This document shows positions 1,807 through 56,942 of a DNA stretch of 64,000 nucleotides, piece by piece. A program made the translations under genes and the position numbers. The stretch is from NCBI GenBank assembly GCA_951406725.2, contig OX597814.1:222580001-222644000 (forward strand), given 5' to 3'. The DNA is from Octopus vulgaris. Lineage: Eukaryota. Position 1 is the stretch's first letter; each line of letters begins with the position of its first letter. The notes under the pieces were generated by a model that had not been told where the DNA came from, made no database searches, and saw nothing but the letters and a program-made list of their open reading frames with translations.

Positions 1807-2287
1807 AGAATGATGGGCAAATAAATACAAATGGACAGACTGAGGAGTGAAGGCGAGAGAAAGAGAGAAAGAGTGAGAGAGAGAGAGACAGGAGAGACAT
1901 TTAGATATTTTAGGTATATTGTTTATATAAAATATAGATATATATATTCATATATCACTGAAAGTGTTTGTGTGTGTGTGTGTGTGTATGTGTGTGTGTT
2001 TGCGTGTGTGTGTGTGTGTGCGTACGTATATTGAATTGGGCTGCGGGGAATTTGTGGTTCGTCCATTCGGCGAACATCTGACAAGGCATTAAGTTACTGA
2101 TGGTACTCGAATGTAAGCTGGGAATTTATAAGTCCCAGCGAAGCCAAATGGGAGACGGAATTTGATATCGAAAGGACCAAAACTTCCCAAAACTGCATGA
2201 TGATCCATTCCAGAAAATATTTGTGATGTAGTCTGTCAAACAGCAAATCAGGTACTGTCGGAGAATATCGAGGAATATCGGGGCATA

Positions 2288-2453
2288 TTAATTAACGAAT
2301 GAATGACAGAATTATAGGAGTTAGGTAATTATATTTCTTAGCATACAGACTTCCAACTAAGAAAGACTTTCAACTGAGTGTACATATATCATACACTCAG
2401 CTCGGGGTAGGGTACTATTTATAAAAGTGATTAACATCTCCTTTTCATCATCA

Positions 2454-2535
<82 letters not shown>

Positions 2536-2678
2536 TAACTTTTATAAATAGTACCCTACCCCGAGCTGAGTGTATGATATATGTACACTCAATTGAAAGT
2601 CTTACTTAGTTGAAAGTCTGTATGCTAAGAAATATAATTACCTAACTCCTATAATTCTGTCATTCATTCATTAATTAA
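2288..2678. repeat. 141-bp inverted repeat around (AAT)n
   Basis: 2288-2428 is the reverse complement of 2538-2678 with about 4 mismatches; spacer contains (AAT)n at 2460-2534. Confidence 0.95.
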
Positions 2679-2680
2679 TT

Positions 2681-3907
2681 CCCAGAGCGCAAGGAGGTCG
2701 AGGCCTGATCCAATTTGAACTAGCTTACAAAACAACCACAATTGGACTGGCCAAATATCTTGAAATAACGAATGACTGGATGCTAAAGCTCGTGGAAAAT
2801 CACGAGAGACGGAAGAAGCTTCATTCTATCATAAAGGAAAGCAAAAAAATTGCTATTGATCTCGTGCAGGATACACAAACTGAACAACCCGAGGGAAGTA
2901 CGGCAAATATTGATGCAAAGAAGGTGAAAATAATGGCAACAAAAAAAGCGCACGAGCAATTGGCTGATAGGTGGGAGGAGAAACCTCTGCACGGCAAATA
3001 TGTGGCCCGTAGCAAACAAGCTGATGTTTACCAGAAGCAAACCCATCAGTGGCTATGGAGCTCAGGGCTAAAAGCAGAGAGCGAAGGTTTCATCCTGGCT
3101 GCTCAAGATCAAAGCCTATTAACCCGGAACTACCAGGCCAATGTGATGAAAAATGGAGCAGACCCAAAATGCCGATTCTGCAACGACATGATTGAAAAAG
3201 TGGACCACCTAATCTCTGGATGTAAAGTCTTAGCACCAGTGGAATATAAATTAAGACATGACAGAGTTGGCCAATATCTACACTGGCTAATAAGTCGGCA
3301 TTACAATATCAAAACTGCCGACAAGTGGTATAATCACCAGCCTGAAGCTGTAACTGAAGGAGAAAATGTAACCATTCTGTGGAACTTTCCAGTACATACA
3401 GATCCGAACAATCAAGGCCAATAAACCAGATATTGTTGTGAAAGACCAAAGCAATAAAGTTTTCTTATTGATCGACATGAGCATCCCCTGTGATCATAAT
3501 ATCTCAGCGAAAGAGTTTGACAAGCTCAGAAAATATAAAGACCTACTCATTGAAATTGAGAATTTGTGGCATCTCAAGGCGGTTACAATACCAGTGATCG
3601 TAGGAGCACTATGAATGATCAAGAAGGGAACCGAAAATTATATGAGAATGATCCCTGGCTTACCATCCCTGCAAGAAGTGCAAAAGATTGTCTTAACTGG
3701 TACATCACACGTATTGAGAAGAGCATTGTCGATGTGAGAACTATTACTACCCATGTATTTTAATTTAACATTAAAAAAAATTTTAAATGAACGAACTAGT
3801 GTGTTTAGTTTAATGGCCTACCAATGTATACTATGAGTTTCTTTGCCCTAGGAGTCGGGAAGACACTCGGCAAGAAATGGAAGCAACTTTGAAAGAAGAA
3901 AAAAAAG
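2681..3907 (+). mobile_element. 5'-truncated non-LTR retrotransposon with restriction-like endonuclease (R4/Dong-like), pseudogenised
   Basis: Translation gives post-RT motif PRAQGGRGL, CCHC knuckle CRFCNDMIEKVDHLISGC, RHDRV, then after a 1-nt insertion near 3404 KPDIVVKD..LIDMSIP..KEFDKLRKYKDL (PD-(D/E)xK RLE). One internal stop; ORF ends TGA at about 3737; short 3'UTR runs into (AAT)n, the known target type of Dong elements. Confidence 0.9.
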
Positions 3908-3912
3908 ATAAC

Positions 3913-3954
<42 letters not shown>

Positions 3955-3991
3955 ACTACTACTAATAATAATAATAATAATAATAATAATC

Positions 3992-4062
<71 letters not shown>
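3908..4062. repeat. (AAT)n microsatellite, 3' flank of the RLE LINE
   Basis: Direct reading. Confidence 0.98.
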
Positions 4063-4063
<1 letters not shown>

Positions 4064-4383
4064 GGCGCAGGAGTTGTCTGGTAAGAAACTTGCTTGACAA
4101 CGATATATATATATATATACATATATATACATGGGTGGGTGTATTTGTGTGTGTATGTGTAGGTGTCTATGTGTATCAGTGTTTGTCCCCAACATCACTT
4201 CACAACTGGTGTTGGTGTGTTTACGTCCCCATAACTAAGCGGTCCGGCAAAAAAATCGATAGAATAGAATAAGTACTAGGCTTACAAAGAGTAAGTCCTA
4301 TGGTCGATTCGTTCAACTAAATGCGGTCCTCCATCATGACCGCAGTGAAATGACTGAAACAGGTAAAAGAAAAGAATAAAAGA
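4063..4383 (+). mobile_element. SINE family A, internally deleted copy
   Basis: Head aggcgcaggag..ggtaag joined to the internal TA/TG tract and the 3' half ending cagtgaaatgactgaaacaggtaaaag; homologous to 15567-15988. Confidence 0.8.
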
Positions 4384-4394
4384 AGAAGAAGAAT

Positions 4395-4425
<31 letters not shown>

Positions 4426-4446
4426 AAGAAGAAGAAGAAGAAGAAG

Positions 4447-4478
<32 letters not shown>

Positions 4479-4559
4479 AAACAAAAACAACAACAACAGT
4501 AACAACAACAATGATAATTTCAAATGTTGGTACTAAGGATGAGATGATTACATCTGCCA

Positions 4560-4670
4560 TAGTGACCTTGAGAGGATGAAAAACGACGTCTAACCCAGCG
4601 GAATTTTAACTGAGAATGTAAGCAGGTCAAAGAAATGCCGCTGAGTATTTTCTCCGGCGTGCTAACGATT
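4560..4670 (-). mobile_element. SINE family B, diverged fragment
   Basis: cggcgtgctaacgatt and gcggaattttaactgagaa match the family B head on the - strand. Confidence 0.55.
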
Positions 4671-4825
4671 AATAATAATCGTTTGGATTGAGTGATGAGT
4701 GTGTTTGTCCACATAATACTTACATATCCAGGTAGACTCAATTTAGAAGATATTTAACCAAGATTACGTGGAACGGAATTTGGTACCATATGATACCAAA
4801 GCAATTATCTTTCCCTCACGACTAA

Positions 4826-5247
4826 GTATTTACTCTTTACTCTTTTACTTGTTTCAGTCATTTGACTGCGGCCATGCTGGAGCACCGCCTTTAATCGTTC
4901 AAATCGACCCCGGGACTTATTCATTGTAAGCCCAGTACTTATTCTATCGGTCTCTTTTGCCGAACCGCTAAGTGACGGGCACGTAAACACACCAGCTTCG
5001 GTTGTCAAGCAATGCTAGGGGGACAAACACAAACACACAAGCACACACACGCATATATATATATATATATATATACATATATACGACGGGCTTCTTTCAG
5101 TTTCCGTCTACCAAATCCACTCACAAGGCATTGGTCGGCTCGGGGCTATAGCAGAAGACACTTGCCCAAGGTGCCACGCAGTGGGACTGAACCCGGAACC
5201 ATGTGGTTGGTAAACAAGCTACTTACCACACAGCCACTCCTGCGCCT
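4826..5247 (-). mobile_element. SINE family A, full length (tRNA-derived)
   Basis: Near-identical reverse complement of 15567-15988; A-box-like TGGCTGTGTGG, B-box-like GGTTCAGTCCC, (TAAAAGAG)n tail. Confidence 0.92.
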
Positions 5248-5744
5248 TGTGCAATTTATTATTAACTCCACCTTCGCAAGGGCAGATGTGTTATTTTCAG
5301 TCGTGTTTGTTGGTTTGTTTGGCTGGATGGATTCGAATGTAATTTTCAGGGATGTTTGGCCTCGTGACTGAATAGATTTTGGAGTCGATCCAATCTCGGA
5401 CAAGGATTTTGAATTATTTTTCCGTGTGTTTTTACTCAAATTTTGAGAGCGTTCAGGTTCATTTTTAGTATTCTCATTTGTGAGGGCAGTCGGGGTTATT
5501 TCTGGTTAATCGTTGAGAGGACGATGGTGTTGCCTTGGCGCAGGTTTGCGCTCTCTGAGCGCTCTTGTTGTATTTCTATTTTCAGAATTATACCTCTATG
5601 GAAGTCGCGAACTGCAAATGCGTAGGTAACAAATAGTTTATAACCTGACTGTCGCTTGTGCTAAAACTATTTGTAGTAAGTAGCACCTATGAATTTCAGT
5701 TCGAAGTTTTCAATGGTATGATTATGAAAAAAAAGGGAGCCAAA

Positions 5745-6144
5745 ATTCATTTCTGCTCTAAGCACAGGGCCCGAAATCGTTGGGGAGGGGGCCAGTCGGC
5801 TAGATCGACCCCAGTATGCAAGTGGTACTTAAGTTATCGACACCGAAAGGATGCAAAGCAAAGTCGACCTAGGCGGAATTTGAAATCAGAACGTGAAGAC
5901 AGACGAAATACCTATTTCTTTACTACCCACAAGGGGCTAAACACAGAGAGGACAAACAAGGACAGACAAACGGATTAAGTCGATTAGATCGATCCCAGTG
6001 CGTAACTGGTACTTATCTAATCAACCCCGAAAGGATGAAAGGCAAAGTCGACCTCGACGGAAATTGAACTCAGCCGAAACGGTAGACGAAATACTGCTAA
6101 GCATTTCGCCCGGCGTGCTAACGTTTCTGCCAGATCGCCACCTT
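5745..6144 (-). mobile_element. SINE family B, head plus 2 tandem units
   Basis: Head aaggtggcgatctggcagaaacgttagcacgccgggcg; unit starts near 6094 and 5911 (period about 183 bp). Confidence 0.88.
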
Positions 6145-9104
6145 AATAAAAAGGAAGCCAATATCAAATTGTTTAAATACTGGTTAAGCCGTGGATGTAC
6201 GAGTTTCGGCCTTCCTATACACAGTACCGTGTTCGATTTTACTTCACAGGCTCTGAGTAAATGTGCACTAATTTGGATTCAGTTTCAGCAGTCAGCCCAA
6301 GCAATTGTCCTGATGATAATTTAGACTTTATTGATCTCTCATCAATTTAGCTGCTACTAGGTGGCATTTAATACCACAATGTATTCCTGGCAGGGCTGGA
6401 ATATTAGTTTGTGACAAGCAGTTCCTTTAACTGTACTAAATCTTGGTCGTTTCAATTCATTGAGAATTTTCGGTAGTATTTTAAATTGCGTAACTTGTTT
6501 TCCTTCGGTTTTGTTAGTTCAGCAATGTTTATTCAAATTAATCAAATTTATTGTGCAATTTACAATGGACTGAGATCAAGCTTACATTTTTGAAAGGTCT
6601 TTTGTTTTATCTGCTCACAGCGATTTAACGTGTGATTTTGCTAAGCCAAATTAATATTCTTTAGTTTTCCCTCTCGTAATACGAATTCACAGGGACTTCT
6701 TAACTTGACAACAGGAAAATTCTGCTTCATAGTAATGACATAATTCTATTGGTGTCGCATAATAACCGCCATTAATAGTAGCAGAGAAACTCCTGGATAT
6801 ATTATTACAGTATTATATAATTGAATAAATAACGTTCATATATTTTATAAGATTCTGATTGTATGTGTGTGTTGTGTCTGTTTGAAGTATCTTGTACTAT
6901 GTACTCAAACATACACTGTAAGTTATTATCGTAAACATTAATATAATTTGTCATCTGATTTCGTTGTATTATAGTAGAATTGTATCGATCATTTAATAAA
7001 ATCAAAACTATAAACAGATTCCTTTGTTCTTTAATGTATATATATATATATATATATATACAGAGAAAGGAAGAGAGAGATACTTATACATAATTATGCT
7101 TGTAAGTATGAATGTGTGCGTATGTGCTTACTTATGCATACACGTATCCTTTATATGTGCATATATAAATATGTAAGTATGTGCCTGAAAGTCTGAGTTT
7201 GGGTTAATGTGTTTGAAAATATATACGCACAGTGTAACTTCTACGTTTCTATCTTCAAACGCTCTAGATGAATTCACAAATAGTTTTAATAAAATGAATA
7301 AGGAATAATAAACATTTCTTTCTATTCTGTGCATGTTTAAACATAATATATTTCTTGTTGACATTATGTATTGTAATTATGAATATATCAGTTACTAGTT
7401 GCTTTGCGTTCTATAAGCATCGATAAATAAGCTCGAATAAATGATATGTAGGCAATAAAGAATTGCTGCTTCATAATATAAAATGATGCATATTAGAATG
7501 AATGGTTTTGGGTCAAACATATGGTGATATGTCAATACGTACGATTGTGTATATATATGTCTGTGTTTGTGTGCGTGTGTGCGTATGTGTGTGTGCGTGT
7601 GTGTGTTTGTGTTTCACTATTGCTTTGTTCATTACTTTGGACTTCTAAGCGAAATTAAATTCAGCGAAAAGAGAAATAGATCGAACTACGTTTTGTCCAT
7701 TATTATATTTACTGCTTTTAATTCAACATTAAAGTACAAAATGCTTATAGAGCTAACGATTTTCAAAATGTTATTCAAACAATTTCCTCTGAATTCATCC
7801 AGAACTTATCTTCCTTTTGCACATGTTATCTGCACCTAAGTAGGCGCTGGCGCAGAGTTGGTGCCAAAAATATGTAGTATTACTTCCATCTAACTTTGTG
7901 GTACATTCATCACTTTTCTTATAACAGAACTTTAAAAGCCTTGGGAATATAAGCCCTGGGAATGAAATTTGCTTGATGGAAACTGCGTGACCAGTTTTTT
8001 TTTCTTATATGCTCGACTTAATTATTTACCCTTCTCAATACCACCACGTGATATTTTAGTGCCTTTTGAGGATTCCTTTCAACTGCAAGAATTCGTTGCA
8101 CGTCTTCAGTCTGGAGATAAGTTCATCCCTTCTCCTACTCAATTTTAAGCGGGGCAAAAATTAAGTTACTTCCCTCACTACTCGTTTGACTAGTCGATGG
8201 GAGTGTGCAATTCGTAGCCCTAATTAGTGACAGTGACGTGCACTGCTTTAGTAGTTATTGACAAATTGCTCAACCTCTCTATATAGTTCATCGTACTATT
8301 CTAATGATATGCTGATTTGTTGTTCTACGTGATACTGATCGAATGAGCGCTGCAATAGCAAAAAAAGGTTCTGTCTCATAGGATTCCGATAAAAAAACAC
8401 GCACTGTCGAATCGCCTTCGATAAGCAATAAACACAATAATTCTTAATTATATTTAATTGAACAGAACAACGATAGCAACGAGCATATCAAATTTTATCA
8501 AGATTAAAATAGAAATATAAAAATAAAGAACAATGCAAACAAAATCTTTATGATAAAGATGATTCTAAATTAAGAATTCCAGTTCAACAATTCTATATTA
8601 AAAGTCTTTCAGACAGATTAGAATGTACTTCTATTACATGATTTATATTTAGTGGTTTACTTCTGAGTATTTTGATGATGATTATACGTGTTTATGTTTT
8701 GGATGTCAATGTTCTAGCTTTGATTATATTTCTCTATCAGCAGACGGATATTTTCTTCCATCTTCCCGTCCAAATATGATAAGCTCATCCTTGGAGGCAC
8801 GAGTACTGAAGTAATATATTGATGATAAAGAATTTACATAATATTAAATTCTTTTCTTCCCGGTGTTTTATTCAATGTCGGACAAATTTGTTTTGCATTA
8901 TATCTCTTGAATTCCAGTAAGAGTGTAATCGAATCTGCATTTTTAATGCACTTTCGGAAAGATAAGGTTATAAAAATATACTCATATGAACATACAACCG
9001 TAGGTGTTTGAATACTTGCTAAGTAGTCAATATAAAATTTGCATAACCAGTTTTTATATAAAAGAATATCGGCATAGCCACACACACATATATATATCTA
9101 TATC

Positions 9105-9450
<346 letters not shown>

Positions 9451-9856
9451 ACATTATATATACATATATATATATATATTTAAAGAACAACTTTCGATCG
9501 CAAATGACCGTGAGATTGCACCTTCCCTCCGCGGCACAATTATATATATCATTATTCCTCTCTTCCTGTTTTCGATTTGATCTTACAAATACATTCCCTA
9601 CTTTTAGGCCACTTTAAATAAAACCCTTGATACAATAGCACTGTGTACAAGCTCTATACTTAGGAATGACCAATTTTAGATACTATTGGATTATACTCAC
9701 ACGGTATTGCAATATTATATGTATACCATTCTGCCTAAATAATGGATCTACAAATGTAATATCCCTGCAAATATCACATCTCTTTTCATTCCTCCACTTC
9801 ACTCTCTATTTCCTTTCTTACCTACAGTAACTATTGCTTGACTACTTTTTCACACC

Positions 9857-9904
9857 GTCTCCGAAGAAGGGATATATTAAATACCCTGGAAACAGCTGTA
9901 AGAC
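9857..9904 (+). ncRNA. Type I hammerhead ribozyme motif (core variant CCGAAGA)
   Basis: GTCT-CCGAAGA-AGGG(atatattaaata)CCCT-G-GAAA-C-AGCT-GTA-AGAC; stem I GTCT/AGAC, palindromic loop III. Confidence 0.7.
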
Positions 9905-10144
9905 CTTCTATTTAGAAATGTTCTAAAATCATCACAGCCTTGGTTTTTTTTATTTCATTCTGAAAAAAAATTATATATATATAACATCCAAATTTCCTCA
10001 TTTTACATTCTACATTGAGAGAAGAAAGAGATGGACGCTTCAATTCTATGCTGCTGCCGCATTATGTCGTACGCGAATGAGAGGATTTGCATCCCCAACC
10101 AAGAATTTTTGATGTAACACATGTCCTTGTGGAAGCAGTTGTGC

Positions 10145-10222
10145 GCGGCTGAAGAAGGCCACAGACATACATTATGCATTGTTATAAATCTGTCTAATAA
10201 AGGCCCGAAACATATGTACCGC
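10145..10222 (+). ncRNA. Type I hammerhead ribozyme, long stem II
   Basis: GCGG-CTGAAGA-A-GGCC...GGCC-C-GAAA-C-ATAT-GTA-CCGC; intact core, stem I GCGG/CCGC, GUA cleavage triplet. Confidence 0.85.
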
Positions 10223-10253
10223 TGAATCCTTCGCATTATGTTTTTATTTTGAT

Positions 10254-10322
<69 letters not shown>

Positions 10323-10383
10323 GTATGTATAACGAAAAAGTCAAGGTAGAACATGCTAAAATAATTTTATCATACAAAACACT

Positions 10384-10423
10384 TTAGTATTGGTTTCAGT
10401 CATTGAGAGTTTTTGGACTCTAA
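10384..10423 (-). ncRNA. Probable decayed hammerhead (core lost)
   Basis: - strand TTAG-AGTC(...)GACT-GAAAC-CAATA-CTAA; stems I and II and GAAAC are retained, CUGANGA is missing. Confidence 0.3.
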
Positions 10424-10582
10424 GTATGGAAAACAATTAAAGTTTGGAAAAATTAAATGAAATTTTTTTTTAAAAGAATATTTGCAAAGTATTCAAATAC
10501 AAGGGGCAATTTCCTGGCTTCTGCTTGTCTCTGTCTCTCTTGTTTACTCTTGTGGGTTCGAGGTTGTTGTGAATTCTTGGCA

Positions 10583-10966
10583 GAGAAGAAGAAGAAGAAG
10601 AAGAAGAAGAAGAAGAAGAAGAAGAAGAAGAAGGAGGAGGAGGAAGAAGAAGAAGAAGAAGGAGAAGAAGAAGAAGAAGAAGAAGAAGGAGAAGAAGGAG
10701 AAGAAGAAGAAGAAGAAGGAGAAGAAGAAGGAGAAGGAGAAGAAGAAGAAGAAGAAGAAGAAGAAGAAGAAGGAGACGGAGAAGGAGAAGAAGAAGAAGA
10801 AGAAGAAGAAGAAGAAGGAGAAGAAGGAGGAGAAGAAGAAGAAGAAGAAGGAGAAGGAGAAGAAGAAGAAGAAGAAGAAGAAGAAGAAGAAGGAGAAGTA
10901 GAAGGAGAAGGAGAAGAAGAACAAGAACAAGAACAAGAACAACAACAACAAGAACAAGAACAAGAA
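10583..10966. repeat. Compound (GAA/GGA/CAA)n purine-rich microsatellite
   Basis: Direct reading; source of the spurious poly-K/E/S/F ORFs. Confidence 0.97.
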
Positions 10967-10971
10967 TGTGG

Positions 10972-11346
10972 GAGTGGTATGATGGTGGTAGGATGATAGA
11001 CGCTCAAGTGCGCTGAAAGTGACTTGTTGTGAATGGTAGTAGTGATTGAATTCTTGAGATAAATCTCTTTTGAATGTATTGTTTTTAATATTTGCACAGG
11101 TGTTATTCTAAATAGCGGTAGTAGTAAAGTAAGGAATGAAGCGGCAGAGAGGAAGACGAAGAAGGAGAGGAGAAAGAATAATAAAAGAATGCGTGAGTGG
11201 TATGATACTTGTAGGTTGTTAAATGGTCAAGTGACCTAAAAGTGACTCGTTGTGGATTATAGCAGTGATTGGGACTGTTTTTAATGAATTCATCGGTATC
11301 TCTTTTGAAGGTATCATTTTTAATATTTACGTGTGTGTTATTCTAA
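10972..11346. repeat. Diverged tandem duplication, period about 225 bp
   Basis: gagtggtatgat..tcaagtg..aaagtgact..atctcttttgaa..tttttaatattt..gtgttattctaa occurs at about 10972-11110 and 11195-11346. Confidence 0.75.
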
Positions 11347-11422
11347 GGTCGTTGTGGATATTTAAAAAAAACGGCGGGAACTTAGTTGCCATCCGAATAT
11401 ATATATATATATATATTCGTAT

Positions 11423-11484
11423 GCACCTGATGAAAAAGTACAACGTATGATGCCCCTAATGAGCTTTTGAAAGAGCTGTAGTAC
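11423..11484 (+). ncRNA. Degenerate type I hammerhead
   Basis: GCAC-CTGATGA-AAAAG...CTTTT-GAAA-G-AGCT-GTA-GTAC; one mismatch each in stems I and III. Confidence 0.6.
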
Positions 11485-12358
11485 TCGATCAACTCCTCGG
11501 TCTTTTTCATTACAGATTATCGTATCATCAGCAATATTTGTCGCTTTCGAAATGGCTGAATGAAGCTAATACCATCGTGATGAAAGACTGACTGAAACAC
11601 AGAGATAACATTAAGCACACGAACTATTCACAGTAACACAATAACTGGCAGTAACTCTTCTGTACTAATTCACTTTCAATAGTATCAAACACTCTCAACA
11701 ATTATCGTAACGCGATTTCAATATTATAACATTCAAACTCCCTCACTAAATAAAATTTATTCGTAAAAAAAATCAACTAAACAGATTTCGTCATTTTCGT
11801 CTATACACAACTGCTGACATCCAGCGATGCAACTAAAAGTCAGCTCCCCAAATTAATAGTCAAATACAGCCTCCGGTAATCAGCAATCAGCTTCAACTAT
11901 CACTGGGCACTACATTCAACAACCAGAAATCTAACTTAGTGAACATAACTTAGTGTAATTGTGATGTTCCCTGGTAGGCATTTCACCTAATTTAATTTAC
12001 TAGTATACCAGAACCTGGATCATACATTACTCATTGATGTTACTACCTCATGGTGTTGTGTAGATCTGGCTACAATTAACACACTTTCCGCACAACTAAC
12101 TTATTAATTTGATTATTTTCCTAATCCCCTTAATGACACACTAGATCCTAAATCGTACGAGCCATGTTTTATATTTCCTTTTTCTACAGGCCCAACGATC
12201 TTAAACGTAGATATATGAGCGTGCGCATGCATATTCGTGCGGATGAATTTGTATCTCTATAATTACAAATAGAAGATCGTTAACTTGCGAATATTTTTTT
12301 GTCGCACGATTTCTTATTTCTGGCATTACATTTAATTAAATTTCATATATATTTTGTG

Positions 12359-12397
<39 letters not shown>

Positions 12398-12623
12398 GTG
12401 TATTTACAATTATACTTCATATTTTAGCACTACTTTAATATCATACGATTATATTCGCTTGTAAATATTTATTCTCAAATGTTTATGTACTTGTAGTTAT
12501 ATTCTATTCCCTTACTCTCATGTAGATTACATACTGGTATATTAGAATATGTGTATATCGAAGAGGGTATATATATATATATATATATAAGTTCAGCAAC
12601 AATATATATAAGTTCAGCAATAA

Positions 12624-12709
12624 TTGGCTGAAGAGCACTCAGCATCTTAAATCTGCTGTAATACTTGCAACTTTTAATAAAATGTTGTAATGCGAAACAA
12701 TTGTACCAA
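12624..12709 (+). ncRNA. Type I hammerhead ribozyme, long stem II
   Basis: TTGG-CTGAAGA-GCA...TGC-GAAA-C-AATT-GTA-CCAA; fully canonical core. Confidence 0.9.
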
Positions 12710-12790
12710 ATTAGCGGAGTCATTCTTGTTGCTTATTTTTGATTACATGTATATATATATACGAGAAAGAAGCAACAAGAATGGATTAGT

Positions 12791-12881
12791 TTTTAGTACA
12801 ATTGTTTCATACAAAGACAGGCTTTATTACAAGTTGCAAAAATTGCAGCAGATAAAAGTGTCCCGTACTCATCAGCTAAAA
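12791..12881 (-). ncRNA. Type I hammerhead ribozyme, long stem II
   Basis: - strand TTTTAG-CTGATGA-GTACGGGACA...TGTCTTTGTAT-GAAA-C-AATT-GTA-CTAAAA; 6-bp stem I. Confidence 0.9.
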
Positions 12882-13404
12882 TACATTTGAGTTCTCCAGA
12901 CATCTTAGTGGGTGAGGTTATACTCATGAAATATTGGAGATAGTTCCATTAGAGGCAGATATAGGTTGTAAACAGTTTTCCAAAGTTCCTTAATGATGAT
13001 GCACAGTCTTATCACAGATTTTTAAAAACTTATTAGTTTCGAAGAGAAGATGAATCAATCCATAGTGTAGATTTTAAATTTAAAAGGCCTGGTTCATGGC
13101 CCAAACTTCCGGGTTCTTATACACATATTAGGAAAACTGAAGGACCGCTGCAATACGTGTTTGAACCTGAGAGCGGAATAACGTTGAATAAAATCATAAT
13201 TAACTCATCCCCCTGTATTTTCTCCTACCCAAACCCTGGAACATTTCAACACCCTTCGGTATTCGACTACTGTTTTTCCCACCTTATTTTCCACTTATGT
13301 GATCACCTGTATATATACATATATATATATATATTTATACACGCATACAATAATATAAATAATATATATGCGTATATACAAACGCATATGTACATACTCA
13401 CATC

Positions 13405-13447
<43 letters not shown>

Positions 13448-13456
13448 GTTTAAATA

Positions 13457-13512
13457 TTTGTTGTGCAAGATTTTTTATTGGCTAAACTGGCAATATGACC
13501 ATTCCAAAATAT

Positions 13513-13519
<7 letters not shown>
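13457..13519. mobile_element. Internal-deletion derivative of the palindromic element at 49126-49591
   Basis: tttgttgtgcaagattttttat joined to tggctaaactggcaa.atgaccattcc.aaatataacaata, i.e. both termini of that element. Confidence 0.85.
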
Positions 13520-23322: not shown

Positions 23323-23358
23323 CTTTCTGTTGAGGAGCGTAGGCTCGAAACGTAAAAG
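23323..23358 (+). ncRNA. Minimal hammerhead motif (core variant CTGTTGA)
   Basis: CTTT-CTGTTGA-G-GAGC-gtag-GCTC-GAAA-C-GTA-AAAG, within an insert of about 190 bp between (TG)n and (TA)n. Confidence 0.65.
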
Positions 23359-41115: not shown

Positions 41116-41150
41116 ATTTCACGTTTCGAGCGGAGCTCTTCATCAGAAAT
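41116..41150 (-). ncRNA. Minimal hammerhead motif (GUG triplet, likely inactive)
   Basis: - strand ATTT-CTGATGA-A-GAGC-tcc-GCTC-GAAA-C-GTG-AAAT, in an insert of about 200 bp (41017-41212) between (TA)n and (CA)n. Confidence 0.75.
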
Positions 41151-47216: not shown

Positions 47217-47331
47217 AAGGTGTGGGCTCGTACTTGTCGTAGACCCACAACCAACTAACTCTAAAAACAAACAGCCTTAAAACTACTGTCGTAAAACAGA
47301 ACATAATTACCAAATCTTGCATTTCATGACG

Positions 47332-47407
<76 letters not shown>

Positions 47408-47519
47408 AACGTCATGAAATGCAAGATGTGGTAATTATGTTCTGTTTTACGACAGTAGTTTTAAGGCTGTTTGTTTTTAGAGTTAGTTGGTTGTGGGTCT
47501 ACGACAAGTACGAGCCCAC

Positions 47520-49125: not shown

Positions 49126-49126
<1 letters not shown>

Positions 49127-49583
49127 TTGTTGTGCAAGATTTTTTATGTAAAGTCGTGTGTTGAAACAGATATTGTTATATTTCGGAATGGTCATTTTGC
49201 CAGTTTAGCCAATAAAAACACACGCACTATATATTTGGTGTTACTTGCTTCAGTGTTATTTATTTTTTACATTAATCTTAATCTTATTTCGGCCAGAGTT
49301 CTTTCATCACATTCCTGTGACCGCATCAGTGGTCCTTTGTTTTCTTCTTACTTATTTGTGTCTCTCCTTACTAACCGTCAGCCATTTTGTAAGGAGAGAC
49401 ACTTATAAGTAAGAAGAAAACAAAGGACCACTGATGCGGTCACAGGAGTATGACGAAAGAACTCTGGCCGAAATAAGATTGTGATTAATGTAAAAAATAA
49501 ATAACACTGAAGCAAAGTAACACCAAATATATAGTGCGTGTGTTTTTATTGGCTAAACTGGCAAAATGACCATTCCGAAATAT

Positions 49584-49591
<8 letters not shown>
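49126..49591. mobile_element. Palindromic element in (TA)n, like inverted Penelope pLTRs, with an HHR-like motif in each arm
   Basis: Arms 49170-49371 and 49389-49591, 17-nt loop, 44-bp one-sided extension; CCA-CTGATGC-G-GTCA..TGAC-GAAA-G-AA-CTC-TGG at 49425-49469 (+) and 49291-49335 (-). Confidence 0.8.
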
Positions 49592-55949: not shown

Positions 55950-56942
55950 CTGCAGACAGAAGCAGTAATATAACAGATTCAAATCATGTTTTATTTGTTC
56001 TTGTCAGTTTAGTGGGAAACGAACTCGGTGAGATTTAAAGATCATAGTGGAAGTGTATTTTTACATAAGATGTGCGATTTTAGCTTATTTTAAGTTAAAA
56101 TGATGATTAAAGAAAATTACAGTGTTTTCTGTTTTCACGACCGATGATATTATTTTCGTTGTCAGTGATATTCTTTTTTCTATCTTTCAAATCCCTGCGC
56201 ATCGTAATAGAGCTTCATTATTAGTGTCTGATACGTTGTTAAAAGAGGCTTCGCTCTGCGATATCTTACATAACATGAGAGCGATGTTTTAATAGAATTC
56301 TTCAGATAGCGTGAGGGTAGTTTGAGTCCTTATAGATGTATTGTAGGATTTCCTTAATGTTTTCATATGGATAGTATCCACAAGTTTCTCCATTTAATGT
56401 GATGTCAGAAAATTATCTATACTGAGGTCAGAGTAACGGCCGATTTTGCAATATCTGATTTTTATTTAACAAATGTAACACTAAGAAGATTCAGCCGCAA
56501 TACAACTTTCTTTCCCTGAAGTTAAATCTAAATTGTATCTAAAAGCAACTCTATTCACAAAAATCACCGGAATTGCTTCAAACTTGACGTCAGTGTAAGC
56601 ACAGCCATTTTTCCTTACTTACAAATCACTGTCAAAAGTTGTAGATTTTCTAATTTGCAAAAATCATTTTGACTACTGATTCAGTAATAGAGATGCAGTT
56701 TCTAGCGTAATTCATCATTGTGCGGGACCATGTTCTTGTGTGAGAGTCCATATCCGTGTATCTGTGAGTGTGTATTTGAGTGCACCTCAGATTTATTTAA
56801 ATGACATTCTTAAAAGTTAAAATTTAACGGAATCCAAAATACTAGGAATTATAAAATCTCTACACAATAACAACTGGCTGTACCAACGTTAGTGGGCACT
56901 CGTACATATGCACACAACAGATACACACTCAAGATCATATAT

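What the first reader, a model, noticed from the sequence alone, without database searches (positions are those of the whole stretch)
9857..12881. Cluster of six hammerhead ribozyme motifs in 3 kb, part of a window-wide set of short HHR elements docked at (TA)n
Seen: type I HHR folds at 9857(+), 10145(+), 11423(+), 12624(+) and 12791(-), a decayed one at 10384(-), and others at 23323, 41116 and 49291/49425. Stem I differs in each copy but always pairs (GTCT/AGAC, GCGG/CCGC, TTGG/CCAA, TTTTAG/CTAAAA, CTTT/AAAG, ATTT/AAAT), which looks like covariation. Stem III is tiny with palindromic loops (AGCT, ATAT, AATT or none). Most elements end about 35-120 nt after the cleavage site at a (TA)n tract. 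Known: minimal type I HHRs with palindromic loop III are typical of Penelope-like element pLTRs and metazoan retrozymes, and can cleave as dimers. Inference: several distinct non-autonomous ribozyme retroelement families target TA microsatellites, implying a very large unannotated ribozyme population in this genome.
Basis: partly seen in the sequence, partly recalled or inferred. Interest (0 to 1): 0.88.

Follow-up and report, generated by a model that had tools for sequence, protein, structure and literature searches.

The report
Ribozyme-tipped ends of Penelope-like retrotransposons
The six hammerhead-ribozyme motifs are real, but five of them are the clipped-off tail ends of protein-coding jumping genes of a known group (Penelope-like elements), which likely piled up here because they insert into TA repeats; whether these RNAs cut themselves is untested.

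Summary
Observation largely confirmed; the 'non-autonomous retrozyme' reading is not. Four motifs pass a strict type I hammerhead descriptor (9857+, 10145+, 12624+, 12791-); 10384- and 11423+ are decayed copies. Each belongs to its own dispersed repeat family with fixed 3' ends and ragged 5' ends. In longer copies elsewhere in the genome, five of six families run co-linearly into a GIY-YIG endonuclease ORF. Four are of the Hydra clade; one of these has intact 836-aa RT+endonuclease copies 94-96% identical to the window copy. One is Neptune-like. The sixth (11423) stayed unlinked. An unbiased 0.8-Mb sample gave 29 motifs against 0-1 per shuffle (about 100,000 genome-wide), with 18 of 29 within 150 nt of a downstream (TA)n. 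Hammerheads plus (TA)n insertion are published traits of Hydra-clade elements, including one from Octopus (Craig 2021). Departures: long stem II inserts, 70-155-nt tails, family-wide core variants (U4C, U3-A8, A6U in about 16,000 copies), and a one-short/one-long rule for inverted pairs (26 of 29). This scan noted the same things before on other DNA of this genome. Cleavage is untested.

The parts
9549..9971 (+). Family A: 5'-truncated 3' end of a Hydra-type PLE (older family, about 89% identical to relatives), short end
   Evidence: Extent by blast to L171. 19 of 19 other loci found with the upstream UTR carry the same hammerhead 3' half; 8 of 19 run co-linearly into a GIY-YIG endonuclease
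9857..9904 (+). Type I hammerhead, U4C core (CCGAAGA), stem I GTCT/AGAC, stem III palindrome CAGCTG, predicted cut after 9900
   Evidence: C4 is the family norm
9972..9983 (.). (TA)6 between A and B
9984..10256 (+). Family B: 5'-truncated 3' end of a young Hydra-clade PLE (unit about 4.7 kb, 836-aa RT + GIY-YIG ORF), short end
   Evidence: 99% identical copies; 94-96% identical to the ends of elements with intact ORFs L166, L169, L177; two hammerheads 4675 nt apart in L312
10145..10222 (+). Type I hammerhead, canonical core, 51-nt stem II insert, palindrome CATATG, predicted cut after 10218
10257..10321 (.). (TA)21 plus (TATG)n shared by B and C, tail to tail
10322..11361 (-). Family C: 5'-truncated 3' end of a Neptune-like PLE, interrupted by a (GAA)n expansion at about 10585-10960
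   Evidence: Extent. GIY-YIG with internal CxxC found just upstream in 10 of 10 longer loci chosen for translation, C-X4-CxxC linker in several of them, YLDD RT in L268
10384..10423 (-). Decayed hammerhead; the family reads UUGAAAA (U3-A8 variant) with a CCGG palindrome
11416..11555 (+). Family D: old, decayed hammerhead-bearing end (motif 11423-11484) with part of its tail; no coding partner shown
12590..12619 (-). Inverted remnant of the tip of the family E tail (14 nt, partly duplicated), the vestigial second arm of the insertion
   Evidence: Read by eye against L002, L006, L007
12620..12748 (+). Family E: 3' end of a Hydra-type PLE; hammerhead 12624-12709 with a 59-nt stem II insert, predicted cut after 12705, short end
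   Evidence: L008, L013, L015, L017 co-linear with L172 into the endonuclease, RT with YRDD in L172
12750..12761 (.). (TA)6 shared by E and F, tail to tail
12762..13081 (-). Family F: 3' end of a young Hydra-type PLE related to E; hammerhead 12791-12881 with a 60-nt stem II insert, predicted cut after 12797, short end
   Evidence: 580-aa RT-thumb to endonuclease frame in L175, with L086 and L087 co-linear into it

Best explanation
The motifs are the hammerhead-bearing 3' repeats (pseudo-LTRs) of endonuclease-coding Penelope-like retrotransposons, shown for five of six families, and they were likely left here as 5'-truncated dead copies by repeated insertion into the same TA microsatellites. 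Shown: fixed 3' ends, ragged 5' ends, co-linearity with RT/GIY-YIG ORFs, TA flanks, two alternative 3' ends, and head-to-head pairs with one end of each kind. Inferred: an active tandem copy is transcribed from a promoter in its upstream pseudo-LTR; its RT-endonuclease nicks (TA)n and primes reverse transcription at two internal sites 35-70 nt and 95-230 nt past the hammerhead cut site; synthesis usually stops after 0.1-1 kb, so most insertions keep little more than the hammerhead. Because (TA)n is palindromic and survives on both flanks, later elements of other families would insert in either orientation, giving tail-to-tail neighbours and clusters. The copies span the cut site, so the template must be uncut tandem RNA or a re-ligated circle. 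The ribozyme probably cuts slowly, as a dimer through its palindromic stem III or with help from the element's protein.
For: Family B: five intact 836-aa ORFs with DKT, YRDD, CxCX5C, GIY-YIG, CxxC-E and N-CxH; 150 of 150 scored endonuclease hits at 81-100% identity among 19,445 first-look candidates. Families A, E, F: co-linear ladders into Hydra-type endonucleases. Family C: Neptune-type endonuclease and RT. Two 3' ends per family, and 26 of 29 within-locus head-to-head pairs have one short and one tailed arm (22 of 22 in B, E, F; 4 of 6 in A; 0 of 1 in C). In L167 the tail runs straight into the ORF, ATG 197 nt after the cut site. TA enrichment. Literature: Hydra clade traits and Hydra-1_Obim; two RT start sites explain the tail, uncut RNA is the main substrate and the ribozyme is protein-assisted in an Anolis PLE; dimer model.
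Against: Family D (11423) could not be tied to an ORF: 25 loci examined, shared sequence ends about 500 nt upstream of the motif, and two endonuclease fragments 1.6-2 kb upstream were not co-linear. A short copy could come from a short non-coding template rather than by truncation, and this cannot be excluded copy by copy. Clade calls rest on diagnostic motifs and a by-eye comparison with the published Octopus family, not on a tree. The 5' boundaries of 7 near-full-length B copies do not fall on the cut site (0 of 7), so no genomic mark of cleavage was seen. The hammerhead fold equals the minimum-energy fold only for B; it is 3-7 kcal/mol higher for A, E and F.
Confidence: 0.92

Rival explanations
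1. The motifs are independent non-autonomous retrozyme families (short non-coding units, copied through circular RNA by a PLE enzyme).
For: Most copies are short and non-coding. Family D has no coding partner so far. Earlier, unchecked notes of this scan report true 359-nt and 485-nt tandem retrozymes elsewhere in this genome.
Against: Five of six families extend co-linearly into RT/endonuclease ORFs. 5' ends form ladders, not a boundary. No regular 150-450-bp arrays were seen in the loci of A, B, C, E, F.
Confidence: 0.05
2. The elements are PLE ends as described, but the hammerheads no longer cut in vivo and are kept as a folded signal for the element's protein or are drifting, which would explain family-wide core changes (U4C, A6U, A9C).
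For: U4C is the norm in family A. A6U in 96 of the first 100 listed of 16,568 exact matches of the 23323 family. U4C and A6C lower activity in vitro (Perreault 2011 passages). Ribozyme mutants did not change insertion in vitro for the Anolis PLE. No 5' boundary at the cut site.
Against: Constraints follow hammerhead chemistry: position 7 varies freely while flanking core letters hold; U3-A8 covariation recurs (5 of 29 sampled motifs); 26 of 29 have C15.2-G16.2, which the descriptor did not require.
Confidence: 0.3
3. The motifs are chance matches in AT-rich, repeat-rich DNA.
For: The core is short. A relaxed search gave 3 extra loci in the window with poor stems. No hammerhead family appeared among the best 150 of 332 Rfam matches listed.
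Against: 3 against a mean of 0.05 in window shuffles; 29 against 0-1 in 8 shuffles of 0.8 Mb; GAAACANNTGTA occurs 69,066 times against 16,305 for the reversed control; fixed position at PLE 3' ends.
Confidence: 0.01

Closest known systems
Hydra clade of C-terminal endonuclease PLEs, including Hydra-1_Obim of Octopus bimaculoides (Craig et al. 2021, PMC8557442; abstract, passages, section 11, supplement parts 1, 2, 52 and a term search of the supplement)
   Same: RT then GIY-YIG; DKT; CxCX5C linker; no CCHH; CxxC and CxH around the conserved E and N; type I hammerhead near the 3' end with a GUH site; (TA)n insertion; inverted 5'-truncated copies; optional tail.
   Different: Family B is about 4.7 kb with a 1.7-2 kb 3' UTR (published: generally under 3 kb). 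RWA instead of RWK. Stem II regions of 21-60 nt here (up to 100 in the sample) against short stems with 3-10-nt loops in File S2. Even-length perfect palindromes in stem III. Tails of about 72-155 nt against 30-40 bp. The Hydra-1_Obim hammerhead sequence differs from all six here, so these are other families.
Neptune clade PLEs and minimal PLE hammerheads (Cervera and de la Pena 2014, PMC4209133; parts 1-2 of 4 read, supplements not read)
   Same: Short stem I, extra nucleotide before stem II, palindromic minimal stem III, U3-A8 core variant, opposite-strand pairs 100-700 bp apart, most motifs solo and ascribed to truncated PLEs. Family C and the 23323 family fit here.
   Different: A6U as the norm of a 16,000-copy family was not in the text I read. 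Much higher copy numbers than the 2,000-9,000 per genome given there.
Metazoan non-LTR retrozymes (Cervera and de la Pena 2020, PMC7229834, passages; Li et al. 2026, 10.64898/2026.07.22.740005, parts 1-3 of 5)
   Same: Type I hammerhead, non-coding appearance, PLE ancestry proposed.
   Different: Retrozymes are head-to-tail tandem units of about 150-450 bp; the window copies are solo or inverted and belong to coding elements.
PAc (Poseidon PLE of Anolis; Frangieh et al. 2024, PMC11167929; parts 1-2 of 4)
   Same: Two 3' ends downstream of the hammerhead; tail leads toward the ORF of the next unit and is AC-rich in family B; AT-rich target.
   Different: In PAc the ORF starts inside the hammerhead; in family B the ATG lies 197 nt after the cut site. 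The target here is (TA)n.

Membership tests
Hydra-clade PLE | Single ORF, RT followed by C-terminal GIY-YIG endonuclease | tested here: met
   Family B 836-aa ORF in 5 loci; broken or partial in A, E, F
Hydra-clade PLE | DKG changed to DKT | tested here: met
   IIPADKTGNW in B; not examined in A, E, F
Hydra-clade PLE | N-terminal RWK motif | tested here: inconclusive
   B reads RIRWAAY at that place
Hydra-clade PLE | CxCX5C linker | tested here: met
   CNCRCASEC (B), CNCRIRSKC (E), CKCRIKSRC (F), CNCRPGTI-type (A)
Hydra-clade PLE | No CCHH in the endonuclease; CxxC and CxH beside the conserved E and N | tested here: met
   VIYSCEVS...TYIG with one Cys; CQLCCVE...NKRSEFKPSCIH; like motifs in A, E, F
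Hydra-clade PLE | Type I hammerhead at the 3' end and (TA)n insertion | tested here: met
Hydra-clade PLE | Length generally under 3 kb | tested here: not met
   B unit is 4675 nt cut to cut in L312; the paper gives this as typical, not diagnostic
Hydra-clade PLE | Groups with named Hydra RTs in a tree | not tested
Neptune-clade PLE (family C) | C-terminal GIY-YIG with CCHH and a CX2-5CxxC linker | tested here: met
   CGRPNCGIC linker, LIYALTCSGC...YIGQT, YLDD upstream; all copies seen are broken; no tree
Metazoan non-LTR retrozyme | Head-to-tail tandem units of 150-450 bp, each with a hammerhead | tested here: not met
   Solo or head-to-head copies in A, B, C, E, F; one local tandem in D (L327)
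Metazoan non-LTR retrozyme | No coding partner in cis | tested here: not met
   Five of six families co-linear with ORFs; open for D
Metazoan non-LTR retrozyme | Expressed as linear and circular monomer RNA | not testable with these tools
   No RNA holder listed and only contigs available
Active hammerhead ribozyme | Self-cleavage after NUH as monomer or dimer | not testable with these tools
   Fold and core only

The most novel reading that the evidence does not exclude
This genome holds a recently active radiation of Hydra and Neptune PLEs whose hammerheads have moved away from the textbook form (fixed U4C, A6U and U3-A8 cores; 50-100-nt stem II arms) and may work only with the element's protein. 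Their inverted insertions obey a strict rule, one arm from each of the two RT start sites, which would mean that a dimeric enzyme primes both nicked strands of a TA target in one event. Intact family B copies would be the first testable Hydra-clade enzyme.
Probability: 0.35. Interest if true: 0.55.

Novelty: new member of a known kind. Interest (0 to 1): 0.24.

Why it matters
It explains a striking-looking ribozyme cluster as ordinary retrotransposon debris and warns that solo hammerheads at (TA)n should not be called retrozymes until longer copies are checked. Useful by-products: a genome-wide estimate near 100,000 motifs, 20 of 29 sampled ones with non-canonical cores that standard descriptors miss; intact, near-identical Hydra-clade ORFs that could be expressed to test TA targeting and protein-assisted cleavage; and a clean two-arm signature of the PLE insertion mechanism. 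A 2026 repeat annotation of Octopus vulgaris does not mention ribozymes, hammerheads or the Hydra clade in its main text, so clade-level annotation is probably still missing.

Tried and rejected
the first descriptor (stem II up to 44 nt, perfect pairing) found nothing; it was too tight. Rfam scan listed only microsatellite-driven miRNA noise in the best 150 of 332 matches; repeat finder swamped by microsatellites. Pfam gave 0 families for two pieces of the B ORF. Family C was first linked to Hydra-type ORF pieces in L124 and L269; rejected, because both are separate insertions beyond a TA tract. An endonuclease upstream in L036 differs from the family A one and was not counted. Family D: N-terminal ORF piece in L324/L360 and endonuclease fragments in L361 and L363 are not co-linear with the family. 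Cut site as 5' boundary: 0 of 7 loci that reached the ATG, out of 26 examined. Expression: no RNA holder listed; contigs of 4 runs guessed to be RNA cover most of the stretch with no joints or piled ends and say nothing on cleavage. Lunse et al. 2017 on dimeric PLE hammerheads was not held; I rely on a review's passages (PMC6765202), so long stems or A6U may be described there. Literature searches; none returned a PLE paper with A6U. Supplements of Cervera 2014 were not read and those of the 2026 preprint are closed; both may bear on the core variants.
Full report
Observation. The six motifs are present at the stated coordinates. A canonical type I descriptor with stem II up to 120 nt finds 3 in the window (10149+, 12628+, 12875-) against a mean of 0.05 in 100 block-wise dinucleotide shuffles. 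Allowing three core variants adds 9861+ (U4C) and 23327+ (A6U). 11423 and 10384 are decayed. Compared with relatives, 11423 has mismatches in stems I and III and a shortened stem II insert. The 10384 family reads UUGAAAA with a CCGG palindrome, the U3-A8 variant, and the window copy has lost both.

Scale and TA link. The genome G000 has 2.8 Gb in 227 contigs. Its size, repeat make-up and a full-length Argonauta homologue of the element protein (34% identity) point to an octopus; that is inference. In 80 stretches of 10 kb taken on a fixed grid, the descriptor found 29 motifs (9 canonical, 9 U4C, 6 A6U, 5 U3-A8) against 0-1 in each of 8 shuffles. This gives about 100,000 genome-wide (Poisson 68,000-146,000; bootstrap 63,000-143,500), a lower bound since decayed copies fail. 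The pattern GAAACANNTGTA occurs 69,066 times against 16,305 for the reversed control. 18 of 29 motifs have (TA)4+ within 150 nt downstream, against 16% of random positions (p = 3.5e-8), and 14 of 29 have it within 150 nt upstream. 26 of 29 have C15.2-G16.2, which the descriptor did not ask for. Four hits in 3 kb exceed the 0.11 expected; TA tracts are somewhat denser there (2.75 per kb against 1.74).

Each motif is a family. DNA searches gave 1,058-1,863 first-look candidates for five families and 6 (then 134 with a better query) for 11423. Families B (10145) and F (12791) are young, 99% identical among the best hits. Copies share exact 3' ends and stop at scattered points on the 5' side.

Coding partners. 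For B, inverted pairs 3-5 kb apart enclose RT and endonuclease sequence. An endonuclease search scored 150 matches at 81-100% identity, and five fetched loci hold an intact 836-aa ORF; the window copy matches their ends at 94-96%. The protein has DKT, YRDD, a CxCX5C linker, GIY-YIG without CCHH, and CxxC/CxH around E and N. These are the Hydra-clade diagnostics of Craig et al. 2021; RWK reads RWA. L312 has hammerheads 196 nt before and 4479 nt after the ATG. For E (12624), L008, L013, L015 and L017 are co-linear with L172 from the hammerhead into the endonuclease, and L172 holds RT pieces. For F, L086 and L087 are co-linear with L175 into a 580-aa frame. For A (9857), 19 of 19 other loci found with the upstream UTR carry the hammerhead 3' half and 8 of 19 reach a Hydra-type endonuclease. 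For C (10384), 10 of 10 longer loci chosen for translation show a GIY-YIG with internal CxxC, several with a C-X4-CxxC linker, and L268 has YLDD: Neptune-like. D (11423) shares only about 780 nt among relatives and has no co-linear ORF in 25 loci.

Ends and arms. Each family has a short end and a tailed end, measured from the cut site: B +38/+110, E +38/+137, F +35/+155, A +71/about +228, C +57/about +95. In L167 the B tail continues into the ORF, so it is the start of the next tandem unit. Of 29 distinct within-locus head-to-head pairs, 26 have one short and one tailed arm (B 10 of 10, E 6 of 6, F 6 of 6, A 4 of 6, C 0 of 1); one of the A exceptions shows tail sequence by blast. The window's E copy keeps a 14-nt inverted tail tip at 12590. 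Craig et al. note a tail often at only one end, and Frangieh et al. tie the two ends to two RT start sites.

Mechanism. Shown: truncated PLE ends in TA tracts with two kinds of 3' end. Inferred: target-primed reverse transcription at (TA)n from internal RNA sites, frequent early stop, and re-use of the TA flanks by later families, which gives the tail-to-tail pairs B/C and E/F. Copies span the cut site, so the template is uncut or circular. The 8-nt stem III palindromes form predicted duplexes of -6 to -11 kcal/mol, in line with the dimer model; the monomer hammerhead fold is the lowest-energy fold only for B. No sign of cleavage was found: 0 of 7 near-full-length 5' boundaries lie at the cut site.

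Known or new. Hydra-1_Obim, with (TA)n preference and a listed hammerhead, is in the supplement of Craig et al.. Solo minimal hammerheads as truncated PLEs, opposite-strand pairs and U3-A8 are in Cervera and de la Pena 2014. U4C is known from a viroid. Not found in what I read: stem II inserts of 50-100 nt, tails over 70 nt, and A6U as a family norm. The 23323 family has 16,568 exact matches, U6 in 96 of the first 100 listed, position 7 free, and a Neptune-type endonuclease upstream in one region of 25 loci. The key paper on dimeric PLE hammerheads was not held. Earlier notes of this scan reached the same reading on other windows, including the arm rule and A6U; I had formed my reading before looking, and tested those points on my own loci.

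Verdict. Real feature; new families of a known kind; the non-autonomous retrozyme reading fails for five of six. Interest 0.24.

Noticed in passing
window 23323-23356 (+); genome-wide: Loop-less hammerhead family with CUGUNGA core (A6U): 16,568 exact matches, position 7 free, GUA or GUU site; Neptune-type endonuclease about 1 kb upstream in L354/L355.
   Followed up: partly
window 49126-49588: Head-to-head pair inside (TA)n, one arm with an extra tail. By eye a type I fold CCA-CUGAUGC-G-GUCAC..GUGAC-GAAA-GAAC-UC-UGG with A9C; relatives L314 and L232 keep A9. A fragment of its end and tail also lies at about 13448-13517.
   Followed up: partly
window 41116-41150 (-): Minimal hammerhead with a GUG triplet, shared by L214 and L231; the commonest relatives have a U4C core and GUU.
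   Followed up: partly
L166, L167, L168, L169, L177: Intact 836-aa Hydra-type RT-endonuclease ORFs, near-identical to each other; Pfam gave no family for two pieces of a sister copy.
   Followed up: partly
L233:8309-8390; L217:6801; L226:100: Further families with 57-100-nt stem II inserts and 6-nt palindromes in the random sample.
   Followed up: no
window 47287-47455: Long inverted repeat centred on (CT)n(TA)n(GA)n; source of spurious Rfam miRNA hits.
   Followed up: no
window 10585-10960: Large (GAA)n/(GGA)n expansion inside the family C 3' UTR; relatives have a shorter or different microsatellite at this place.
   Followed up: partly
window 2675-3424 (+): 249-aa open frame that looks like the C-terminal part of a LINE ORF2 (recalled resemblance, untested).
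   Followed up: no
window 56091-56288 (-): Weak match (E 3e-5) to a Hydra-type RT thumb, probably another old PLE relic.
   Followed up: no
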